This document shows positions 50,356-57,255 of a stretch of 64,000 nt of DNA, one piece after another. The stretch's first letter is position 1. Each line of letters starts with the position of its first letter. Origin of the DNA: Acidimicrobiia bacterium (GTDB lineage: Bacteria; Actinomycetota; Acidimicrobiia; IMCC26256; PALSA-610); NCBI GenBank assembly GCA_038202885.1, contig JBBREP010000004.1, forward strand, positions 15,528 through 79,527, read 5' to 3'. The notes below the pieces were generated by a model. That model worked only from the letters and a program-made list of their open reading frames with translations, was not told the DNA's origin and did not search any database. The position numbers and the translations under genes are program-made.

Positions 50356-50853
50356 CTATTCGTCGTCTTCGTCGTCGCCGCTGCGGTCGACGTCGGCCGC
50401 GAGCAGATCGAACTCGCCGTTGCGAAACACGATCATCGTCGGGCGCCCTTCGAGCGGCGGGCGCAGGCCACCACGCGCAGTGTCGACGCGCACCGCGATC
50501 GTGCGCCGCCCCTTCGCCGTCGGCAGCGCGACCTTGCCGTCGGAGCTCCACTTGAACGCGCCGGGAGGCAACGTGAGCGACTGGTACGTCGAGAACTTCG
50601 GCTGCTTGCCGGCCCGGCGTTCGAGCGACAGTTCGACGCGTTCGGTGATCGGCGTTACGAACGTCTCCGGCAGCTTGTGTGCGTCGACGACTTCCTTGAC
50701 AAGCTCCCGCAGCTCGCGCCCCGAGAACGCGCTGTGTTGGAGCGCGGCGGCTCGGGCCAGGTTGCTGACCTTGTTCGCCCGCTCGAGCGTCGCACGCAAC
50801 AGCTCATGCGTCTGCGGATCGGGCAGGACGTGGACGTCGTCGATATCGGCCAT
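50356..50853 (-). pseudogene. TnpB (IS200/IS605 OrfB) N-terminal fragment: no RuvC or zinc-finger region
   Basis: 'KFSTYQSLTLPPGAFKWSSDGKVALPTAKGRRTIAVRVDTARGGLRPPLEGRPTMIVFRNGEFDLLAADV' resembles the TnpB WED/REC segment. It ends after 165 aa with an acidic tail. Confidence 0.4.
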
Positions 50854-51115
50854 GGCAACGCGGATGGTAGATGCTTGGCGCTCGGCAGACCCGAGGCCTT
50901 TGCGCTGGCGAGAGGCCAGCGGCACCCGCAATGGGTATCAGGAACGCTTGCCAGCGTTCGGACGCTTGCCGTGGTTCGCCTTTTTGCGCTTGGCGTTCAG
51001 ACGGCGCATCTTGGTTTTCTTGCTCACAAGTCGAGGAGGCTAGCTGGCCGGGGCACTACCCATCGAACCGCACGCCGTTGCGATGTCACGCGCGGCCCTC
51101 GATACCCTGGCCGCG

Positions 51116-52150
51116 ATGGAGAATGTCGGGCTCGTCGGATGGTCGGACGCGGGCTCGAACCGCCTATTCAGCGCGCTGACCGGCCTTGGCGATCCCGGGC
51201 TGTTCGAGCGGGCCGTCGGGATTGCCCATGTGGTCGACGACCGACTCCAGCGGCTGGCGGTGATGTCGGAGTCGAAGAAAGTCGTACCCGCGGGCTTCGA
51301 GCTTGCGCACATCGCGCTGCCGCCCGGCTCCAAGCCCGGCGAAGGTCTCGGCGCCAAGTTCCTCGGCGAACTGCGCAATTGCGACGCAATTTGTTTCGTG
51401 CTGCGGGCCCACGACGGCGACCTGGGCCCGGCCGACCCCGCCGGCGACCTCGAGGGCCTCGAACTCGAACTCGTGGTGGCCGACCTCGCCACTGTCGAAC
51501 AGCGACTCGACAAGCAACGCCGAGCGGCCAAGAGCGGCGACAAGGCCATCGTCGCCGAGGTGGCCGCGCTGGAACTCGCGCACGCGCCTTTGTCGGACGG
51601 TGTGCCGTTGTATCGCGCCAATCTCGATCCCGATGTGCGTGCGCTGCTCGTGCCCTGTTTCTTGCTCACGAACAAGTCGACGCTCGTCGTGCTCGGTATT
51701 GACGAGACCCAACTCGACCAGGCCGACGCGATCGCAGCGCCGTTCGGTAGCGACGCGCTTGCCGTTGCCATCGACATCGAAGCCGAGATCGCGGCGTGCG
51801 CACCCGAGGATCGCCCCGAGATGCTCGAGACGTTCGGCATCGGTGAGAGCGTGCTGCCCCGTCTCGCACGCGCGGCGTACCACTGTCTGGGGCGGCGCAC
51901 GTTCCTGACGACCGGCGACACCGAATCGCGCGCCTGGACGTTTCGGGCCGGCGCCAAGGCGCCCGAGTGCGCGGGTGTGATCCACAGCGATCTGCAGCGC
52001 GGCTTCATTCGCGCCGAGGTGATCCGCTGGGACGATCTGCTCGAGATCGGCTCGTGGGCCAAGGCCAAGGAGCTGAAGAAGATCCGCGTCGAAGGCAAGG
52101 ACTACGAAGTCCTCGACGGCGATGTCCTCGAAATCCGCTTCAACGTGTGA
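51116..52150 (+). CDS. YchF-like Obg-family GTPase paralog with degenerate G1/G3 motifs
   Basis: C-terminal TGS domain 'VIHSDLQRGFIRAEVIRWDDL...RVEGKDYEVLDGDVLEIRFNV' is conserved. The P-loop reads 'GLVGWSDAGSN' instead of GxPNVGKST, and DxxG is replaced by 'HIALPPG'. Confidence 0.7.
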   Translation: MENVGLVGWSDAGSNRLFSALTGLGDPGLFERAVGIAHVVDDRLQRLAVMSESKKVVPAGFELAHIALPPGSKPGEGLGAKFLGELRNCDAICFVLRAHDGDLGPADPAGDLEGLELELVVADLATVEQRLDKQRRAAKSGDKAIVAEVAALELAHAPLSDGVPLYRANLDPDVRALLVPCFLLTNKSTLVVLGIDETQLDQADAIAAPFGSDALAVAIDIEAEIAACAPEDRPEMLETFGIGESVLPRLARAAYHCLGRRTFLTTGDTESRAWTFRAGAKAPECAGVIHSDLQRGFIRAEVIRWDDLLEIGSWAKAKELKKIRVEGKDYEVLDGDVLEIRFNV

Positions 52151-52361: not shown

Positions 52362-53138
52362 GTGGCTACGTGGCGCAGAGGCGAATCGCTCGGTCGAGAG
52401 ACCGCAGGCTTTGTTGTCGGCGGCTTCGGCGCGCTGGTAGTGGCTGGCACTTTGGTGCCGCTGCGGTCCCACATGCAGAACGCCGACGTGGCGCTCGTCC
52501 TCGTGCTTCCTGTGCTCGTCGCCGCCGTTATCGGCGGTCGGTGGGCCGGGTTCGAAGCAGCGGTCATCGCCGCGATGACGTTCGACTTCTTCTTCACTGA
52601 TCCCTACCAGTCGCTGAAGATGACCGATGGCAGCGATGTGGTGACGCTCGTGTTGCTCGCGGTGGTCGGGCTCGTGTCGGCCGAAGTCGGCATCCGGGCT
52701 CGGCGCGTCACGCGATCGGCGAGCGACGCCCGCACCGAGCTGCAACGCTTGTTCCGTATCGCCGAACTCTCGGCTGGTGGTGGCGAGCCTGATGACGTGG
52801 TGTCGGCGGTGCGCGCCGAATTGATGGGCATGTTCGCGCTCGACGAGTGCACGTTTGAACCGAACGACGCACAGTCGGACCGAGCTCGGCTCGGCCGGCG
52901 CGGTGCCATCGTGGGCGCCACGTTGCGGTTCGAGGGCGACGACTTTTCGCTCCCTCCGAGTGGGATCGACCTTCCCGTTGTCGGCCGTGGCCGTGCGTTC
53001 GGGCGTCTCGTGCTCCAGCCCGGCCCGCGCTCGAGCGCATCGGCCGAGAAGCGCTTTGTTGCGGTCGCGCTCGCCGACGAGCTCGGGGTGGTGCTCGCGG
53101 CCGAGCGCAACGACGGCGATCCGCCGCGTTCGGGCTGA
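52362..53138 (+). CDS. stand-alone DUF4118 plus GAF-like protein (KdpD sensor-core paralog without kinase domains)
   Basis: 'AVIAAMTFDFFFTDPYQSL' DUF4118 signature, parallel to the KdpD region at 57898..60444. The start may be at the internal 'MQNADV'. Confidence 0.65.
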   Translation: MATWRRGESLGRETAGFVVGGFGALVVAGTLVPLRSHMQNADVALVLVLPVLVAAVIGGRWAGFEAAVIAAMTFDFFFTDPYQSLKMTDGSDVVTLVLLAVVGLVSAEVGIRARRVTRSASDARTELQRLFRIAELSAGGGEPDDVVSAVRAELMGMFALDECTFEPNDAQSDRARLGRRGAIVGATLRFEGDDFSLPPSGIDLPVVGRGRAFGRLVLQPGPRSSASAEKRFVAVALADELGVVLAAERNDGDPPRSG

Positions 53139-53209: not shown

Positions 53210-53365
53210 GTGGCCGACATCGTGTATCTCGCTGTGATCGTCGCCTTCTTCGCGCTGTGCGTCGCGTTCGTGCGCGCGTGCGATCGCATCATCGGGCCCG
53301 ACGAGCTCGCGCCCTTGATCCCAGCCGACGGCGACGATGCCGGCGCGAGCGAGGTGGCCGCGTGA
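53210..53365 (+). CDS. candidate 51-aa membrane micro-protein upstream of kdpF
   Basis: GTG after GAGGAG, '[23 protein letters not shown]' TM helix plus acidic tail. The TGA stop overlaps the GTG start of kdpF (GTGA). Confidence 0.35.
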
Positions 53366-53451
53366 GTTACGACAACGCGCTCGGTCTCATCTTGTCGATC
53401 CTCGTGACCGCGTACCTCGTGTTCGCACTCGTCGCGCCGGAGAAGCTCTGA
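53362..53451 (+). CDS. kdpF: K+-transporting ATPase subunit F
   Basis: 29 aa '[29 protein letters not shown]'. Its stop overlaps the kdpA ATG. Confidence 0.7.
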
Positions 53452-55163
53452 TGGCCGGCTGGCTGCAGCTCCTCCTGATCGTCGCGCTGCTCGCGGTCTC
53501 GATCCCGCTGATCGGTGCGTACCTCGCGAAGGTCTACGGCAACGGCCGTGCACCTGGCGATCGCGTGTTCCTGCCCGTCGAACGGGCGATCTTCCGTGTG
53601 TGCGGTGTCGATCCCGAGCGTGAGCAGCGGTGGAACGTCTACACGCTGTCGTTGCTCGCGTTCAGCGCGGTGTCATTGCTCGTGTTGTACGCGCAGCTCC
53701 GACTCCAGCACTACTTACCGTTCAACGCCGATCACCAGAAGAACGTCCCCGCGGGTCTGTCGTTCAACACGTCGGTGAGCTTCCTCACGAACACCAACTG
53801 GCAGAACTACTCGGGTGAGTCGACGATGAGCCATCTCACCCAGATGAGCGGGCTCGCGTTCCACAACTTCGTGTCGGCCGCGGCCGGTGCTGCCGTCGCC
53901 GTCGCGCTGATTCGCGGCCTCACGCGTACGCGCTCGGCAACCATTGGCAACTTCTGGGCTGATCTTGTGCGCACGTGCACGCGCGTGCTGCTGCCGTTGT
54001 CGTTCGCGTTCGCGCTCGTGCTGGTGAGCCAGGGCGCGATCCAGAACTTCCACGCGGCCCGTCCGGTCACGACCGTGACGGGTCAGACCCAGACCATTCC
54101 CGGCGGTCCGATCGCCAGCCAAGAGGCCATCAAGGAGATCGGCGAGAACGGCGGCGGGCCGTTCAACGCCAACGCGTCGCATCCGTTCGAGAATCCGAAC
54201 GGGGTCACGAACGTGCTCGAGATTTGGCTGTTGCTTGCCATTCCGTTCGCGTTCCCATTCGCCTTCGGTCGGATGGCCGGCAGCGCCAGGCAGGGCTGGG
54301 TCGTGTTCGCCGCGATGTTCCTGCTGTGGTTCGGCGCGTCGGCCGCGGCGATGACGTTCGAGACTCGAGGCAGTCCAAAGATCGCGACGGCAGGGGTGAG
54401 CCAACAGACCACCGCCGCGCAGTCGGGCGGCGGCAACCTCGAAGGGAAAGAGACCCGGTTCGGGGCGGCGGGGTGCGGCGTGTTCGCGGCGAGCACAACC
54501 GGCACCTCGACGGGATCGGTCGATTGCATGCATGACAGCATGACGCCGCTCGGCGGTGGCGTGACGATCGTCAACATCATGCTCGGGGAGGTGAGTCCCG
54601 GCGGCGCCGGCTCGGGTATGTACGGGATGCTCGTGTTCGCACTGCTGAGTGTGTTCATCGCCGGTCTGATGGTCGGGCGCACACCGGAGTACCTCGGCAA
54701 GAAGATCCAGGCCGCCGAGATGAAGCTCGTCGTGCTCTACATCCTCGTTGTGCCGCTCGCGATCCTCACGTTCAGCGCGATTTCGGTGGTGTTGCACAGC
54801 GCGCAATCCTCGCTCCTCAACGCGGGGCCTCACGGCCTCAGCGAGATGACGTATGCGTTCACGAGTGCGGCGAACAACAACGGCTCGGCCTTTGGCGGGC
54901 TCTCGGGTAACACGCAGTGGTTCAACACCACGCTTGGCCTGTGCATGCTGGTCGGGCGGTATCTGCTGATGATCCCGGTGTTGGCGATCGCAGGCTCGCT
55001 CGCTCGCAAGCAACCGGTCCCGCCCTCCGCGGGCACGTTCCCCACCGGCACGCCGCTGTTCTCTGCGTTGCTCGGCGGCGTGGTGATCATCGTCGTCGGT
55101 TTGACGTTCTTCCCCGTTGTGGCGCTCGGCCCCGTGGTCGAGCACCTCGTCGGCAAGTTCTGA
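53451..55163 (+). CDS. kdpA: K+-transporting ATPase subunit A
   Basis: '[29 protein letters not shown]', ~570 aa, 10 TM helices. Confidence 0.9.
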
Positions 55164-55173
55164 TGGAGTGCAG

Positions 55174-57255
55174 ATGACCACGGACATGCTCGCAAGTGAA
55201 ACACCGTCGCCCGATCTTGAGCCGCACGCGTCTGCGGGCACGTCGAAGCGCCGAGCGACATCGATGTTCGACCCGACGATCCTGAAGCGTGCGGTGGTCG
55301 ACTCGATCCGCAAGCTCGACCCTCGCCAGATGGCTCGCAACCCAGTGATGTTCGTCGTCGAGGTCGGCAGCGTGCTCACGACGTTCCTTGCGATTCGCGA
55401 CACCGATGGCTTCGCCACGCTGGTGACGGTCTGGTTGTGGTTCACGGTGTTGTTCGCGAACTTCGCCGAAGCCGTCGCCGAAGGGCGCGGCAAGGCGCAG
55501 GCCGACACGCTGCGCAAGACCCGCGCCGAGACGGTCGCGTACGTGCGCCAAGCCGACGGCACGGTGCGCGAGACGCCATCGACCGAACTCCAGGTGGGTG
55601 ATCTGTGCGTGGTCGATGCGGGCCAGCTCATCCCCGGTGACGGCGACGTGGTCGAAGGGATCGCGTCGATCGACGAATCGGCGATCACTGGTGAGTCGGC
55701 GCCGGTGATCCGCGAATCGGGCGGTGACCGCTCGGCGGTCACGGGCGGTACCGGGGTGCTGTCCGACCAGATCGTGGTGCGCATCAGCTCGAAACCGGGC
55801 GAGACGTTCCTCGATCGCATGATCGCACTCGTCGAAGGCGCGAGCCGTCAAAAGACCCCCAACGAGATCGCGCTCAACATCTTGCTGGCGGGTCTCACGA
55901 TCATCTTCTTGCTCGCGGTGGTGACGCTCCAGCCGTTCGCGATCTATTCGCACGCGCAGCAATCACTCACCGTGTTGGTAGCGCTGCTGGTGTGCCTGAT
56001 CCCCACCACGATCGGTGCGTTGCTGTCGGCGATCGGGATCGCAGGCATGGACCGCCTCGTGCAGCGCAATGTGCTGGCCATGAGCGGGCGCGCCGTCGAG
56101 GCGGCGGGCGACTGCAGCACCTTGTTGCTCGACAAGACCGGCACGATCACCTATGGCAACCGCATGGCCGCGGAGTTCTTGCCGGTCGGCGGCGTCACCG
56201 AAGCCGAGCTGGCCGAAACCGCGCTCCTATCGAGCCTCGCCGACGAGACGCCCGAAGGCCGTTCGATCGTCAAGCTCGCGATCGACGCGCATGGTCTGGT
56301 TGCTCGCGACATGCCAGGGGCCGAGCTCGTGGCGTTCACCGCGCAGACTCGTATGTCGGGCTTCGACTTCGAAGGTCGCATGGTCCGCAAAGGCGCGACC
56401 GATTCGGTGAAGCGTTGGGTGGAGGAGCAGGGCGGTCACGTGCCCGACGACCTCGAGCCAATCGTCGAGCGCATCGCCACGACCGGCGGTACGCCGTTGA
56501 CCGTTGCCGACGGGCAACGCGTGCTTGGTGTGATTCACCTCAAAGACACCGTCAAAGCCGGCATGCGCGAACGCTTCGACGAGATGCGCCGCATGGGCAT
56601 CCGCACGATCATGATCACCGGCGACAACCCGCTCACGGCGCGCGCGATCGCAGCCGAGGCCGGCGTCGACGACTTCCTGGCCGAGGCCACACCCGAAGAC
56701 AAGATGGCCCTCATCAAGAAGGAACAGCAGGGCGGCTACCTCGTGGCCATGACGGGTGACGGCACGAACGACGCGCCGGCGCTCGCGCAAGCCGATGTAG
56801 GCGTGGCCATGAACACTGGTACCCAAGCCGCCAAAGAGGCCGGCAACATGGTCGACCTCGACTCGGATCCGACGAAACTCATTGAGATCGTCGAAATTGG
56901 TAAGCAGCTCCTCATCACGCGTGGATCGTTGACGACCTTCTCCATCTCAAACGACATCGCCAAGTACTTCGCGATCATCCCAGCCATGTTCCAAGGCGTG
57001 TTCCCCGCGTTGAGTTCGCTCAACATCATGAAGCTGGACAACCCGCACTCCGCGATCCTGTCGGCCGTGATCTTCAACGCGCTCATCATCGTGGCGCTCA
57101 TCCCGCTTGCACTGCGAGGTGTGAAATACCGCGCCATGGGGGCCGCCGCGATTCTGCGCCGCAACCTCTTGATCTACGGCGTGGGCGGGGTGGTCGCGCC
57201 GTTTGCGGGGATCAAGCTCATCGACATGATCATCACTGCGATGGGGGTGAAGTAA
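55174..57255 (+). CDS. kdpB: K+-transporting P-type ATPase subunit B
   Basis: '[10 protein letters not shown]' phosphorylation motif, '[13 protein letters not shown]', 694 aa. Confidence 0.95.

What the first reader, a model, noticed from the sequence alone, without database searches (positions are those of the whole stretch)
51116..52150. YchF paralog with degenerate nucleotide-binding motifs (a candidate pseudo-GTPase)
The C-terminal TGS domain and overall length match YchF/EngD, but the Walker A lysine/serine is lost (GWSDAGSN versus GxPNVGKST) and the G3 DxxG is replaced. The protein is probably unable to hydrolyse NTP. It may have been repurposed as a regulatory or ribosome-binding factor. 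A canonical ychF presumably exists elsewhere.
Basis: partly seen in the sequence, partly recalled or inferred. Interest (0 to 1): 0.5.

Follow-up and report, generated by a model that had tools for sequence, protein, structure and literature searches.

The report
YchF ortholog that lost its ATPase site
This gene is one Acidimicrobiia lineage's own copy of the near-universal ribosome-associated ATPase YchF, but every residue needed to bind and split ATP has been replaced by a new, strictly conserved set, so it is probably a natural nucleotide-independent YchF and not a spare paralog.

Summary
Window 51116-52150 (+) encodes an intact 344-aa protein that aligns end to end with YchF and is predicted with high confidence to have the full three-domain YchF fold. 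G1 (GWSDAGSN), the G2 threonine, G3 DxxG, the catalytic His114 and, in this protein, the G4 Asn are all gone. This is not an error or a pseudogene. More than 115 relatives from Acidimicrobiia MAGs carry the same replacement residues, dN/dS is 0.11, and the dead G-domain half is as constrained as the C-terminal TGS-like domain.

The "paralog" reading is not supported. In every Acidimicrobiia locus examined, canonical and degenerate genes occupy the same slot (ychF-DUF192-rsmI-metG-tatD-ksgA-ispE-glmU). The degenerate clade is nested beside canonical Acidimicrobiia YchF. Intermediate forms make a graded series: His114 lost, then G3 Gly to Ala, then the P-loop lost. A second canonical copy elsewhere in these genomes could not be excluded genome-wide.

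The basic tip of the helical hairpin (the 50S contact in E. coli) and the TGS-like domain are retained. The best reading is a nucleotide-independent, ribosome-binding pseudo-ATPase. This is a new variant of a known family, apparently undescribed, and is annotated in public records as an "ATPase".

The parts
51116..52150 (+). CDS of the P-loop-less YchF ortholog (344 aa plus stop)
   Evidence: ORF; orthologs start at this ATG; full-length alignment to YchF structures; AlphaFold2 pLDDT 93.1 and pTM 0.89; Foldseek TM 0.84-0.87 to 2dby, 8kie_y and 1jal; dN/dS 0.109 against L087.
51083..51115 (+). In-frame upstream extension (11 codons from an alternative ATG), probably not translated
   Evidence: Only the window's own database entry P0001 (355 aa) uses it. 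115 of about 119 relatives start at MEN/MEH-LG.
51137..51160 (+). Remnant of G1/Walker A: GWSDAGSN (aa 8-15) in place of GxPNxGK[ST]
   Evidence: In sub-type A the Lys position is A83/S13/T4, the Ser position is N99 and the next residue is R92. The beta1-loop-alpha1 geometry is kept in the model.
51179..51220 (+). Shortened switch I/G2 region (TGLGDPGLFERAVG); the G2 Thr and the Cys35-equivalent position lie in a 6-residue deletion
   Evidence: Alignments: G2 Thr is deleted in 100% of sub-type A and kept in 100% of both canonical clades.
51308..51355 (+). Remnant of G3/switch II: HIA-LPPGSKPGEGLGA (aa 65-80)
   Evidence: Asp to His in 97%, DxxG Gly deleted in 100%, GLGN to GLGA in 90%. This is the lowest-pLDDT block of the G domain (78).
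51404..51439 (+). Region where the catalytic His114 loop (E. coli VVHV) is missing
   Evidence: no His here in any Acidimicrobiia YchF, canonical or degenerate. His114 is reported critical for ATP hydrolysis in E. coli (Rosler 2015, cited in PMC11814078).
51428..51670 (+). Inserted helical hairpin domain (aa 105-185) with the basic tip DKQRRAAKSGDK (51509-51544)
   Evidence: Helices 108-138 and 143-160 in the model. The tip carries 5 K/R in the window and a mean of 4.9 in sub-type A, against 5.2 in canonical Acidimicrobiia and 5 in the E. coli-like reference. The tip lysines contact 23S H62 in the E. coli 50S complex (PMC11814078).
51686..51712 (+). Remnant of G4 (NxxE): VVLGIDETQ, with Asn replaced by Gly in this protein
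   Evidence: the G4 Asn is kept in 85% of sub-type A (H9, G3) and Glu in 98%. The window's own sub-group has G or H.
51899..52144 (+). C-terminal YchF-specific TGS-like beta-grasp domain (aa 262-343)
   Evidence: PF06071 at 113.8 bits. It is the most conserved part: 0.887 pairwise identity within sub-type A, 0.80 between degenerate and canonical clades, omega 0.09.

Best explanation
The gene is the vertically inherited, positional ortholog of ychF in a sub-lineage of uncultured Acidimicrobiia. In this lineage the G domain lost every residue that binds Mg-NTP or catalyses hydrolysis: the P-loop Lys/Ser, the G2 Thr, the G3 Asp/Gly and His114. A new, conserved set of residues became fixed in the old pocket: Asn15, Arg16, His65 and Pro69-Pro70. 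The three-domain fold, the basic tip of the helical hairpin and the TGS-like domain are retained. Shown here: the motif loss, its conservation, purifying selection, fold retention and the shared genomic slot. Inferred: the protein no longer binds or hydrolyses ATP/GTP (a class-i-type pseudo-NTPase); its G domain is locked in one conformation; it still works as a ribosome-associated factor that docks through the helical tip (23S H62, uL14/bL19) and the TGS-like domain. Control would then come from abundance or partners and not from a nucleotide cycle.
For: Motif loss. No PF01926 hit, and TIGR00092 at 230.6 bits against a 279.2 cutoff. The replacement residues are conserved across 115 relatives. 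Selection: dN/dS is 0.109 overall and 0.068 for the N-terminal half of the G domain. Within-clade identity of that half is 0.776, against 0.803 in the canonical clade. Fold: pLDDT 93.1 and TM 0.84-0.87 to YchF structures, including the 50S-bound 8kie_y. Same slot, ychF-(DUF192)-rsmI-metG-tatD-ksgA-ispE-glmU, for degenerate loci L001, L002, L011, L021, L091, L092 and for canonical loci L004-L007, L009, L010, L012-L020, L022, L089, L090. The window keeps the upstream flank; the kdp block is a later insertion. The degenerate clade is monophyletic in the YchF tree (57/60) with canonical L009 as sister, and the neighbour genes put these genomes in one lineage. A graded series fits gradual loss in one orthologous line: TIGR00092 scores fall from 364-378 to 332-334 to 246-264 to 231-261 bits. 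The basic helical tip is retained and is the main 50S contact in E. coli.
Against: No whole-genome search of any degenerate-bearing assembly was possible. The single genome-collection scan was cut at 600 rows, so a second canonical ychF elsewhere is not excluded. Nucleotide binding, hydrolysis and ribosome binding are all inferred. The known E. coli phenotypes (cold-sensitivity rescue, ROS sensitivity on overproduction) need an intact ATP site (PMC8779481), so an ATP-free YchF has no functional precedent. The strict conservation of Asn15, Arg16 and His65, and the partial retention of G4 (N85, E98), could mean the pocket still binds some ligand. In the neighbour-gene tree that includes sub-type B, the position of canonical L009 is unresolved, so a single origin of the loss is not secure.
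Confidence: 0.6

Rival explanations
1. One reading: it is an extra, repurposed paralog, and a canonical ychF elsewhere in the same genome does the normal job.
For: Canonical YchF proteins do exist in Acidimicrobiia MAGs.
Against: The degenerate gene occupies the ancestral ychF slot in 6 of 6 degenerate loci with enough flank; in the window and L087 only the upstream flank is kept. Every canonical Acidimicrobiia gene with enough flank occupies that same slot in other genomes. There is one YchF-like gene in the 64 kb window and one match in the 2.96 Mb contig BPGH01000001.1. No canonical hit shares a contig length with any degenerate hit. From my own knowledge, not checked here, YchF is normally single-copy.
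Confidence: 0.1
2. It is still a nucleotide-binding, and possibly hydrolysing, protein with a non-canonical site. Functional groups would have migrated: Arg16 would replace the P-loop Lys, and Asn15 and His65 would replace the Ser and Asp metal ligands.
For: Asn15 (99%), Arg16 (92%) and His65 (97%) are strictly conserved at or next to the old phosphate and Mg2+ positions. The G4 Asn (85%) and Glu (98%) are mostly kept in the clade. The P-loop backbone geometry is kept in the model. Reviews warn that some apparent pseudoenzymes have migrated catalytic residues (PMC10211241 abstract).
Against: G1, G2, G3 and His114 are lost together, with deletions that shorten both switch regions. The window's own sub-group has also lost the G4 Asn. 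There is no PF01926 signal at all. I know of no P-loop NTPase that works without both the Lys and the Ser/Thr.
Confidence: 0.15
3. It is neofunctionalised away from the ribosome. The remodelled pocket and switch surfaces would be a new protein- or ligand-binding module, as in eukaryotic class-i pseudoGTPases, with a role unrelated to translation.
For: There was a burst of change confined to the G domain (between-clade identity 0.49 against 0.80 for the TGS-like domain), followed by re-stabilisation. A conserved unknown gene (window 50356-50931, minus strand) is transcribed divergently next to it only in sub-type A loci. AAGAB shows that pseudoGTPase domains can act as protein-binding modules (PMC12490416).
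Against: The elements that contact the ribosome in E. coli, or are proposed to (the basic helical tip and the TGS-like domain), are the best conserved parts. The gene stays in a translation-related housekeeping neighbourhood: rsmI, metG, ksgA.
Confidence: 0.12
4. It is a decaying pseudogene or an assembly or frameshift artefact of a canonical ychF.
For: It comes from a MAG. Some related MAG genes (L020, P0150, P0218) do look frameshifted.
Against: The ORF is intact and full-length. The same substitutions occur in 115 independent sequences. dN/dS is 0.11 at dS 0.7. The fold prediction is confident.
Confidence: 0.01

Closest known systems
Canonical YchF/OLA1 (E. coli YchF, 8kie/8w51; T. thermophilus 2dby; H. 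influenzae 1jal; TIGR00092)
   Same: Full-length homology (36-40% identity). The same three-domain fold: G domain, inserted helical hairpin and C-terminal TGS-like domain. The basic hairpin tip is present. The gene occupies the same slot as canonical ychF in sister Acidimicrobiia.
   Different: It lacks the G1 Lys/Ser, G2 Thr, G3 DxxG, His114 and (in the window) the G4 Asn. It scores below the TIGR00092 cutoff and has no PF01926 hit. It therefore cannot be assumed to be an ATPase.
Engineered hydrolysis-dead or ATP-site mutants of E. coli YchF (H114A; P-loop mutants)
   Same: His114 is absent, as in H114A. H114A still binds the 50S subunit and is the form captured in the cryo-EM complex (PMC11814078).
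   Different: H114A keeps nucleotide binding. In E. coli, ATP-site mutants fail to complement (PMC8779481). Here the loss is natural, affects all motifs, and is fixed under purifying selection.
L009-type Acidimicrobiia YchF (P0390-P0509), the sister clade
   Same: The same slot, the same lineage by neighbour genes, 52-59% identity, the same MExLGLVG N-terminus, and no His114.
   Different: It keeps the P-loop Lys/Ser and the G2 Thr (100%) and passes TIGR00092 (332-334 bits). Its G3 Gly is Ala in 100% of sequences. It looks like an evolutionary intermediate.
Class i pseudoGTPases (AAGAB psGD, p190RhoGAP pG1/pG2)
   Same: A GTPase fold with G1-G3 residues missing; by analogy, expected to have no nucleotide binding or hydrolysis (PMC12490416, PMC5593906).
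   Different: Those are eukaryotic small-GTPase-like domains. This is a bacterial TRAFAC/Obg-family protein that descends from a near-universal ATPase. Lack of binding has not been tested here.

Membership tests
YchF/OLA1 subfamily (Obg family, TRAFAC class) | Three-domain architecture: G domain, inserted helical hairpin and C-terminal TGS-like domain, about 360 aa | tested here: met
   End-to-end alignment to 2dby, 1jal and 8kie. AF2 model with pLDDT 93.1. Foldseek TM 0.84-0.87 over about 355 columns.
YchF/OLA1 subfamily (Obg family, TRAFAC class) | C-terminal YchF-specific domain (Pfam PF06071) above the gathering score | tested here: met
   113.8 bits against a cutoff of 27.
YchF/OLA1 subfamily (Obg family, TRAFAC class) | NCBIfam equivalog TIGR00092 'redox-regulated ATPase YchF' above the curated cutoff | tested here: not met
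   230.6 bits against 279.2. Other degenerate members score 243-264 and canonical Acidimicrobiia 332-378.
YchF/OLA1 subfamily (Obg family, TRAFAC class) | G1 Walker A GxxxxGK[ST] | tested here: not met
   GWSDAGSN. Across the clade Lys is A83/S13/T4 and Ser is N99.
YchF/OLA1 subfamily (Obg family, TRAFAC class) | G2 switch-I Thr (xPFxTIxPN) | tested here: not met
   It lies in a 6-residue deletion in 100% of sub-type A.
YchF/OLA1 subfamily (Obg family, TRAFAC class) | G3 DxxG | tested here: not met
   Asp to His (97%); Gly deleted (100%).
YchF/OLA1 subfamily (Obg family, TRAFAC class) | G4 NxxE, the YchF-specific variant of NKxD | tested here: not met
   The window has G-I-D-E. Across sub-type A, Asn is kept in 85% and Glu in 98%, so the feature is only partly lost in the clade.
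YchF/OLA1 subfamily (Obg family, TRAFAC class) | Catalytic His114 (E. coli numbering) | tested here: not met
   There is no His in this region in any Acidimicrobiia YchF. It is also absent from 39 of 109 canonical-P-loop representatives, so it is not universal.
YchF/OLA1 subfamily (Obg family, TRAFAC class) | Orthology by genomic position with ychF of related genomes | tested here: met
   The same ychF-DUF192-rsmI-metG-tatD-ksgA-ispE-glmU slot. The window keeps the upstream flank.
YchF/OLA1 subfamily (Obg family, TRAFAC class) | ATP (more than GTP) binding and ribosome-stimulated hydrolysis | not testable with these tools
   Needs purified protein. Sequence predicts loss.
YchF/OLA1 subfamily (Obg family, TRAFAC class) | Ribosome binding through the basic tip of the helical hairpin | tested here: inconclusive
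   The sequence feature is retained (5 K/R in the tip). Binding itself cannot be tested here.
Pfam PF01926 MMR_HSR1 (50S ribosome-binding GTPase domain) | Match above the gathering score (21.9 bits) | tested here: not met
   No hit at E<=1 for the window protein. Canonical and sister proteins score 58-71 bits.
Class i pseudoGTPase/pseudo-NTPase | GTPase fold with the G-motif residues for phosphate and Mg2+ binding absent | tested here: met
Class i pseudoGTPase/pseudo-NTPase | Experimentally shown absence of nucleotide binding and hydrolysis | not testable with these tools
   The definition is taken from PMC12490416. It requires biochemistry.

The most novel reading that the evidence does not exclude
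In a whole sub-lineage of Acidimicrobiia the only YchF is a nucleotide-free pseudo-ATPase. If so, the conserved core job of this near-universal protein (ribosome docking through the helical hairpin and the TGS-like domain) does not need an ATP cycle. The extant series would then record, step by step, how a universal NTPase switch became hard-wired: canonical without His114, then G3 Gly to Ala, then sub-type B (GHA), then sub-type A (AG[SA]N).
Probability: 0.45. Interest if true: 0.7.

Novelty: new variant of a known kind. Interest (0 to 1): 0.55.

Why it matters
YchF/OLA1 is described as a universally conserved ATPase, yet reviews state that the purpose of its ATP hydrolysis is still unknown (PMC8779481). 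A natural, strongly selected YchF ortholog without any ATP site, together with living intermediate forms, gives a direct way to separate the nucleotide-dependent functions from the nucleotide-independent ones. There is also a practical point. These proteins are labelled "YchF family ATPase", "ribosome-binding ATPase" or "GTP-binding protein YchF" in public records although they almost certainly are not ATPases. They fall below the TIGR00092 cutoff, so marker-based pipelines that use that model will score these genomes as lacking YchF. From memory, TIGR00092 is in the GTDB bac120 marker set; I did not verify this here.

Tried and rejected
- The exact-sequence look-up of the window's own protein found no contig on record, so the source assembly could not be identified. 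The listing of cluster members gave no name for it.
The co-occurrence test is therefore weak.
- I compared contig lengths between the degenerate and canonical hit lists as a proxy for same-contig co-occurrence. There were no coincidences.
- P0150 and P0218 first looked like the closest canonical relatives, but they are frameshifted in the G4 region and were dropped.
- The neighbour-gene tree that includes sub-type B (L021) did not resolve whether canonical L009 lies inside or outside the degenerate group (2/60 bootstrap for monophyly). The four-gene tree without L021 gave 93/100. A single origin of the loss is therefore left open.
- The promoter and terminator scan around the gene was uninformative.
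- Literature searches for YchF with Acidimicrobiia, with pseudo-GTPase, or with degenerate Walker A found nothing relevant.
- The upstream unknown gene gave no Pfam, NCBIfam or PDB match.
- Sequencing error and pseudogene readings were considered and rejected.
- Loss of His114 at first seemed striking, but it is common among divergent YchF-like representatives (39 of 109), so I give it little weight on its own.

Full report
**1. What is there**

Window 51083..52150 (+) is an intact ORF.

The protein aligns end to end with solved YchF proteins: 2dby 4e-63, 1jal 1e-57, 8kie 1e-57. It matches Pfam PF06071 (YchF C-terminal domain, 113.8 bits). It has no PF01926 GTPase-domain hit, and it scores 230.6 bits on the NCBIfam YchF equivalog TIGR00092, below the 279.2 cutoff.

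The motifs read as follows:
- G1 is GWSDAGSN in place of GLPNVGKS.
- The G2 Thr lies in a 6-residue deletion.
- G3 DIAGL is HIA-LPPG.
- The loop that carries the catalytic His114 of E. coli YchF is missing.
- G4 NxxE is GIDE.

**2. It is not an artefact or a pseudogene**

The 120 best database relatives (68-100% identity) are mostly unnamed metagenome or MAG proteins; those that carry a source name are labelled Acidimicrobiia or Actinomycetota. All carry only PF06071, and all show a degenerate P-loop.

In 115 full-length members, the old catalytic positions hold new, nearly invariant residues:

| Position | Residue in the degenerate clade |
|---|---|
| G1 Lys | A83 / S13 / T4 |
| G1 Ser | N99 |
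| Next residue | R92 |
| G3 Asp | H97 |
| G2 Thr | deleted, 100% |
| G3 Gly | deleted, 100% |
| GLGN | GLGA, 90% |

Against an 88%-identical relative (L087), dN/dS is 0.109 at dS 0.72. The N-terminal half of the G domain has the lowest ratio (0.068) and the TGS-like domain has 0.091. Pairwise identity of that G-domain half within the degenerate clade (0.776) equals that within the canonical sister clade (0.803). Between the two clades it is only 0.49, against 0.80 for the TGS-like domain. So the G domain went through a burst of change and then settled into a new constrained state.

AlphaFold2 predicts the protein with pLDDT 93.1 and pTM 0.89. The model superposes on YchF structures over the whole length, with TM 0.84-0.87, including 50S-bound E. 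coli YchF.

**3. Paralog or ortholog**

The exhaustive representative search shows that the nearest canonical-P-loop proteins are Acidimicrobiia YchFs with the same MER[FL]G[FL]VG N-terminus, at 50-57% identity. They are named [quoted passage not shown].

Genomic context settles the question of position. The order is always ychF-(DUF192)-rsmI-...-metG-tatD-(rpf)-ksgA-ispE-glmU-prs. It holds for:
- degenerate genes in L001, L002, L011, L091 and L092 (sub-type A) and L021 (sub-type B);
- canonical genes in L004-L007, L009, L010, L012-L020, L022, L089 and L090.

The window keeps the upstream flank (WS_DGAT ... SDR-SDR-4HBT thioesterase-unknown gene). Downstream it has a DUF4118 gene and the kdp genes (kdpA and kdpB confirmed). 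The 88% relative L087, where the full kdpFABCDE block is called, shares this arrangement. The 78% relative L092 has the same upstream flank and the standard downstream genes. The kdp block is therefore a later insertion.

In the YchF tree the degenerate forms are monophyletic (57/60), with canonical L009 as sister. Concatenated neighbour genes place L001, L011, L021 and L009 in one lineage, apart from the other canonical-bearing genomes.

No second ychF-like gene was seen by three checks. There is none in the window. The 2.96 Mb contig of KatS3mg009 gave one match only. No canonical hit shares a contig length with any degenerate hit.

These checks are indirect. The one genome-collection scan was truncated at 600 rows, so a canonical copy elsewhere is unlikely but not excluded.

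**4. A graded series**

| Stage | Group | State | TIGR00092 bits | PF01926 bits |
|---|---|---|---|---|
| 0 | Typical bacteria | All G motifs plus His114 | n/a | n/a |
| 1 | Main Acidimicrobiia canonical clade (110 seqs) | G1-G4 kept at 98-100%; no His114 | 364-378 | 67-71 |
| 2 | L009-type sister clade (113 seqs) | Lys, Ser and Thr 100% kept; G3 Gly is Ala in 100%; G2 flanks remodelled | 332-334 | 58-63 |
| 3 | Sub-type B (L021, P0114, P0121) | GLPDSGHA/EHG; G2 deletion; G3 out of register | 246-264 | none |
| 4 | Sub-type A (the window) | As in section 1 | 231-261 | none |

Sources. Loss of His114 or of the G3 Gly alone is not rare among divergent YchF-like proteins. Loss of the P-loop Lys/Ser in a full-length protein is rare.

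**5. What is kept, and the likely mechanism**

In the E. coli 50S complex, the helical hairpin is the main contact. Tip lysines K149, K152, K156 and K159 bind 23S H62, and the helices dock on uL14 and bL19. The TGS-like domain is proposed to contact 16S h5 (PMC11814078).

The window protein has DKQRRAAKSGDK at the tip. Sub-type A averages 4.9 K/R there, against 5.2 in canonical Acidimicrobiia and 5 in an E. coli-like reference. The TGS-like domain is the most conserved part.

I therefore infer a ribosome-associated factor that docks as YchF does but without a nucleotide cycle, with its G domain fixed in one state. This is inference. In E. coli, ATP-site mutants fail to complement, and ribosome binding is favoured by the ATP-like state (PMC8779481, PMC11814078). 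E. coli YchF also restrains leaderless-mRNA translation through IF3 (PMC8138138). From my own knowledge, leaderless mRNAs are common in Actinobacteria, which makes that role a plausible one to test.

**6. Rivals**

- An extra paralog (0.10) is argued against by the shared slot.
- A non-canonical but still active or ligand-binding site (0.15) is kept alive by the strict conservation of Asn15, Arg16 and His65 and by the partial retention of G4.
- A new role unrelated to the ribosome (0.12) is possible but is disfavoured by what is conserved.
- A pseudogene or artefact is excluded.

**7. Comparison with known families, and novelty**

By fold, homology and position the protein belongs to the YchF/OLA1 family. 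It fails the family's nucleotide-binding features and the curated equivalog cutoff. It is best described as a pseudo-ATPase variant of YchF, analogous to class i pseudoGTPases (PMC12490416).

Full-text searches found no description of such a YchF. Public records call these proteins ATPases, GTP-binding proteins or DUF933 proteins. I rate it a new variant of a known kind with interest 0.55. It would be a moderately surprising finding for people who work on YchF, and it offers a natural experiment on the still-unknown role of YchF's ATP hydrolysis. Its key functional claims remain untested.

Noticed in passing
window 50356-50931 (-): A conserved protein of unknown function (160-191 aa) with no Pfam, NCBIfam or PDB match. 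It is transcribed divergently upstream of the degenerate ychF in every sub-type A locus (L001, L002, L003, L011, L087, L091, L092). tblastn did not detect it next to canonical ychF genes. It may be a lineage-specific partner.
   Followed up: partly
window 52362-53138 (+), followed by 53210-57255: A stand-alone DUF4118 protein that resembles the membrane domain of KdpD (NF007793 positions 420-553). It sits just before a small ORF (53210-53365; no family hit, only positionally a kdpF candidate), kdpA and kdpB. L087 has the same arrangement plus a second DUF4118 gene on the other side of ychF. The whole kdp block is an insertion between ychF and DUF192-rsmI-metG; the 78% relative L092 lacks it.
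   Followed up: partly
L001 8519-9809; L002 1470-2967; L003 535-2032; L011 8387-9800; L091 5335-6817: An ABC ATPase plus UPF0014 permease pair lies directly upstream of the degenerate ychF in several sub-type A genomes. From my own knowledge it resembles the FetAB iron exporter. It is absent from the window, L087 and L092.
   Followed up: no
proteins P0140, P0188, P0204, P0222: Other full-length YchF-like representatives outside this clade also have non-canonical P-loops (GLPDAGAS, GLPGSGSS, GLAGSGRR, GIPGSGRT). P-loop loss in YchF-like proteins may therefore have happened more than once. Their taxonomy could not be determined.
   Followed up: no
L009, L089, L090 and proteins P0390-P0509: A large Acidimicrobiia YchF clade keeps the P-loop but has the G3 DxxG glycine replaced by Ala in 100% of 113 sequences, and has no His114. 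It still passes the YchF equivalog model, although its switch and hydrolysis chemistry is probably altered.
   Followed up: partly
L020 10001-11081; proteins P0150, P0218: These canonical ychF genes in some MAGs appear frameshifted (nonsense sequence after the P-loop or in the G4 region). Assembly errors are the likely cause, not real pseudogenes.
   Followed up: no
L001 12243-12500 (-); also L002, L006, L011, L021, L091, L092: A small MazE/AbrB-type (PF04014) gene on the opposite strand is conserved between rsmI and metG, close to ychF, in degenerate loci and in one canonical locus. I noted it because E. coli YchF has been linked to MazF-generated leaderless mRNAs (PMC8138138). The adjacency may well be a coincidence.
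   Followed up: no
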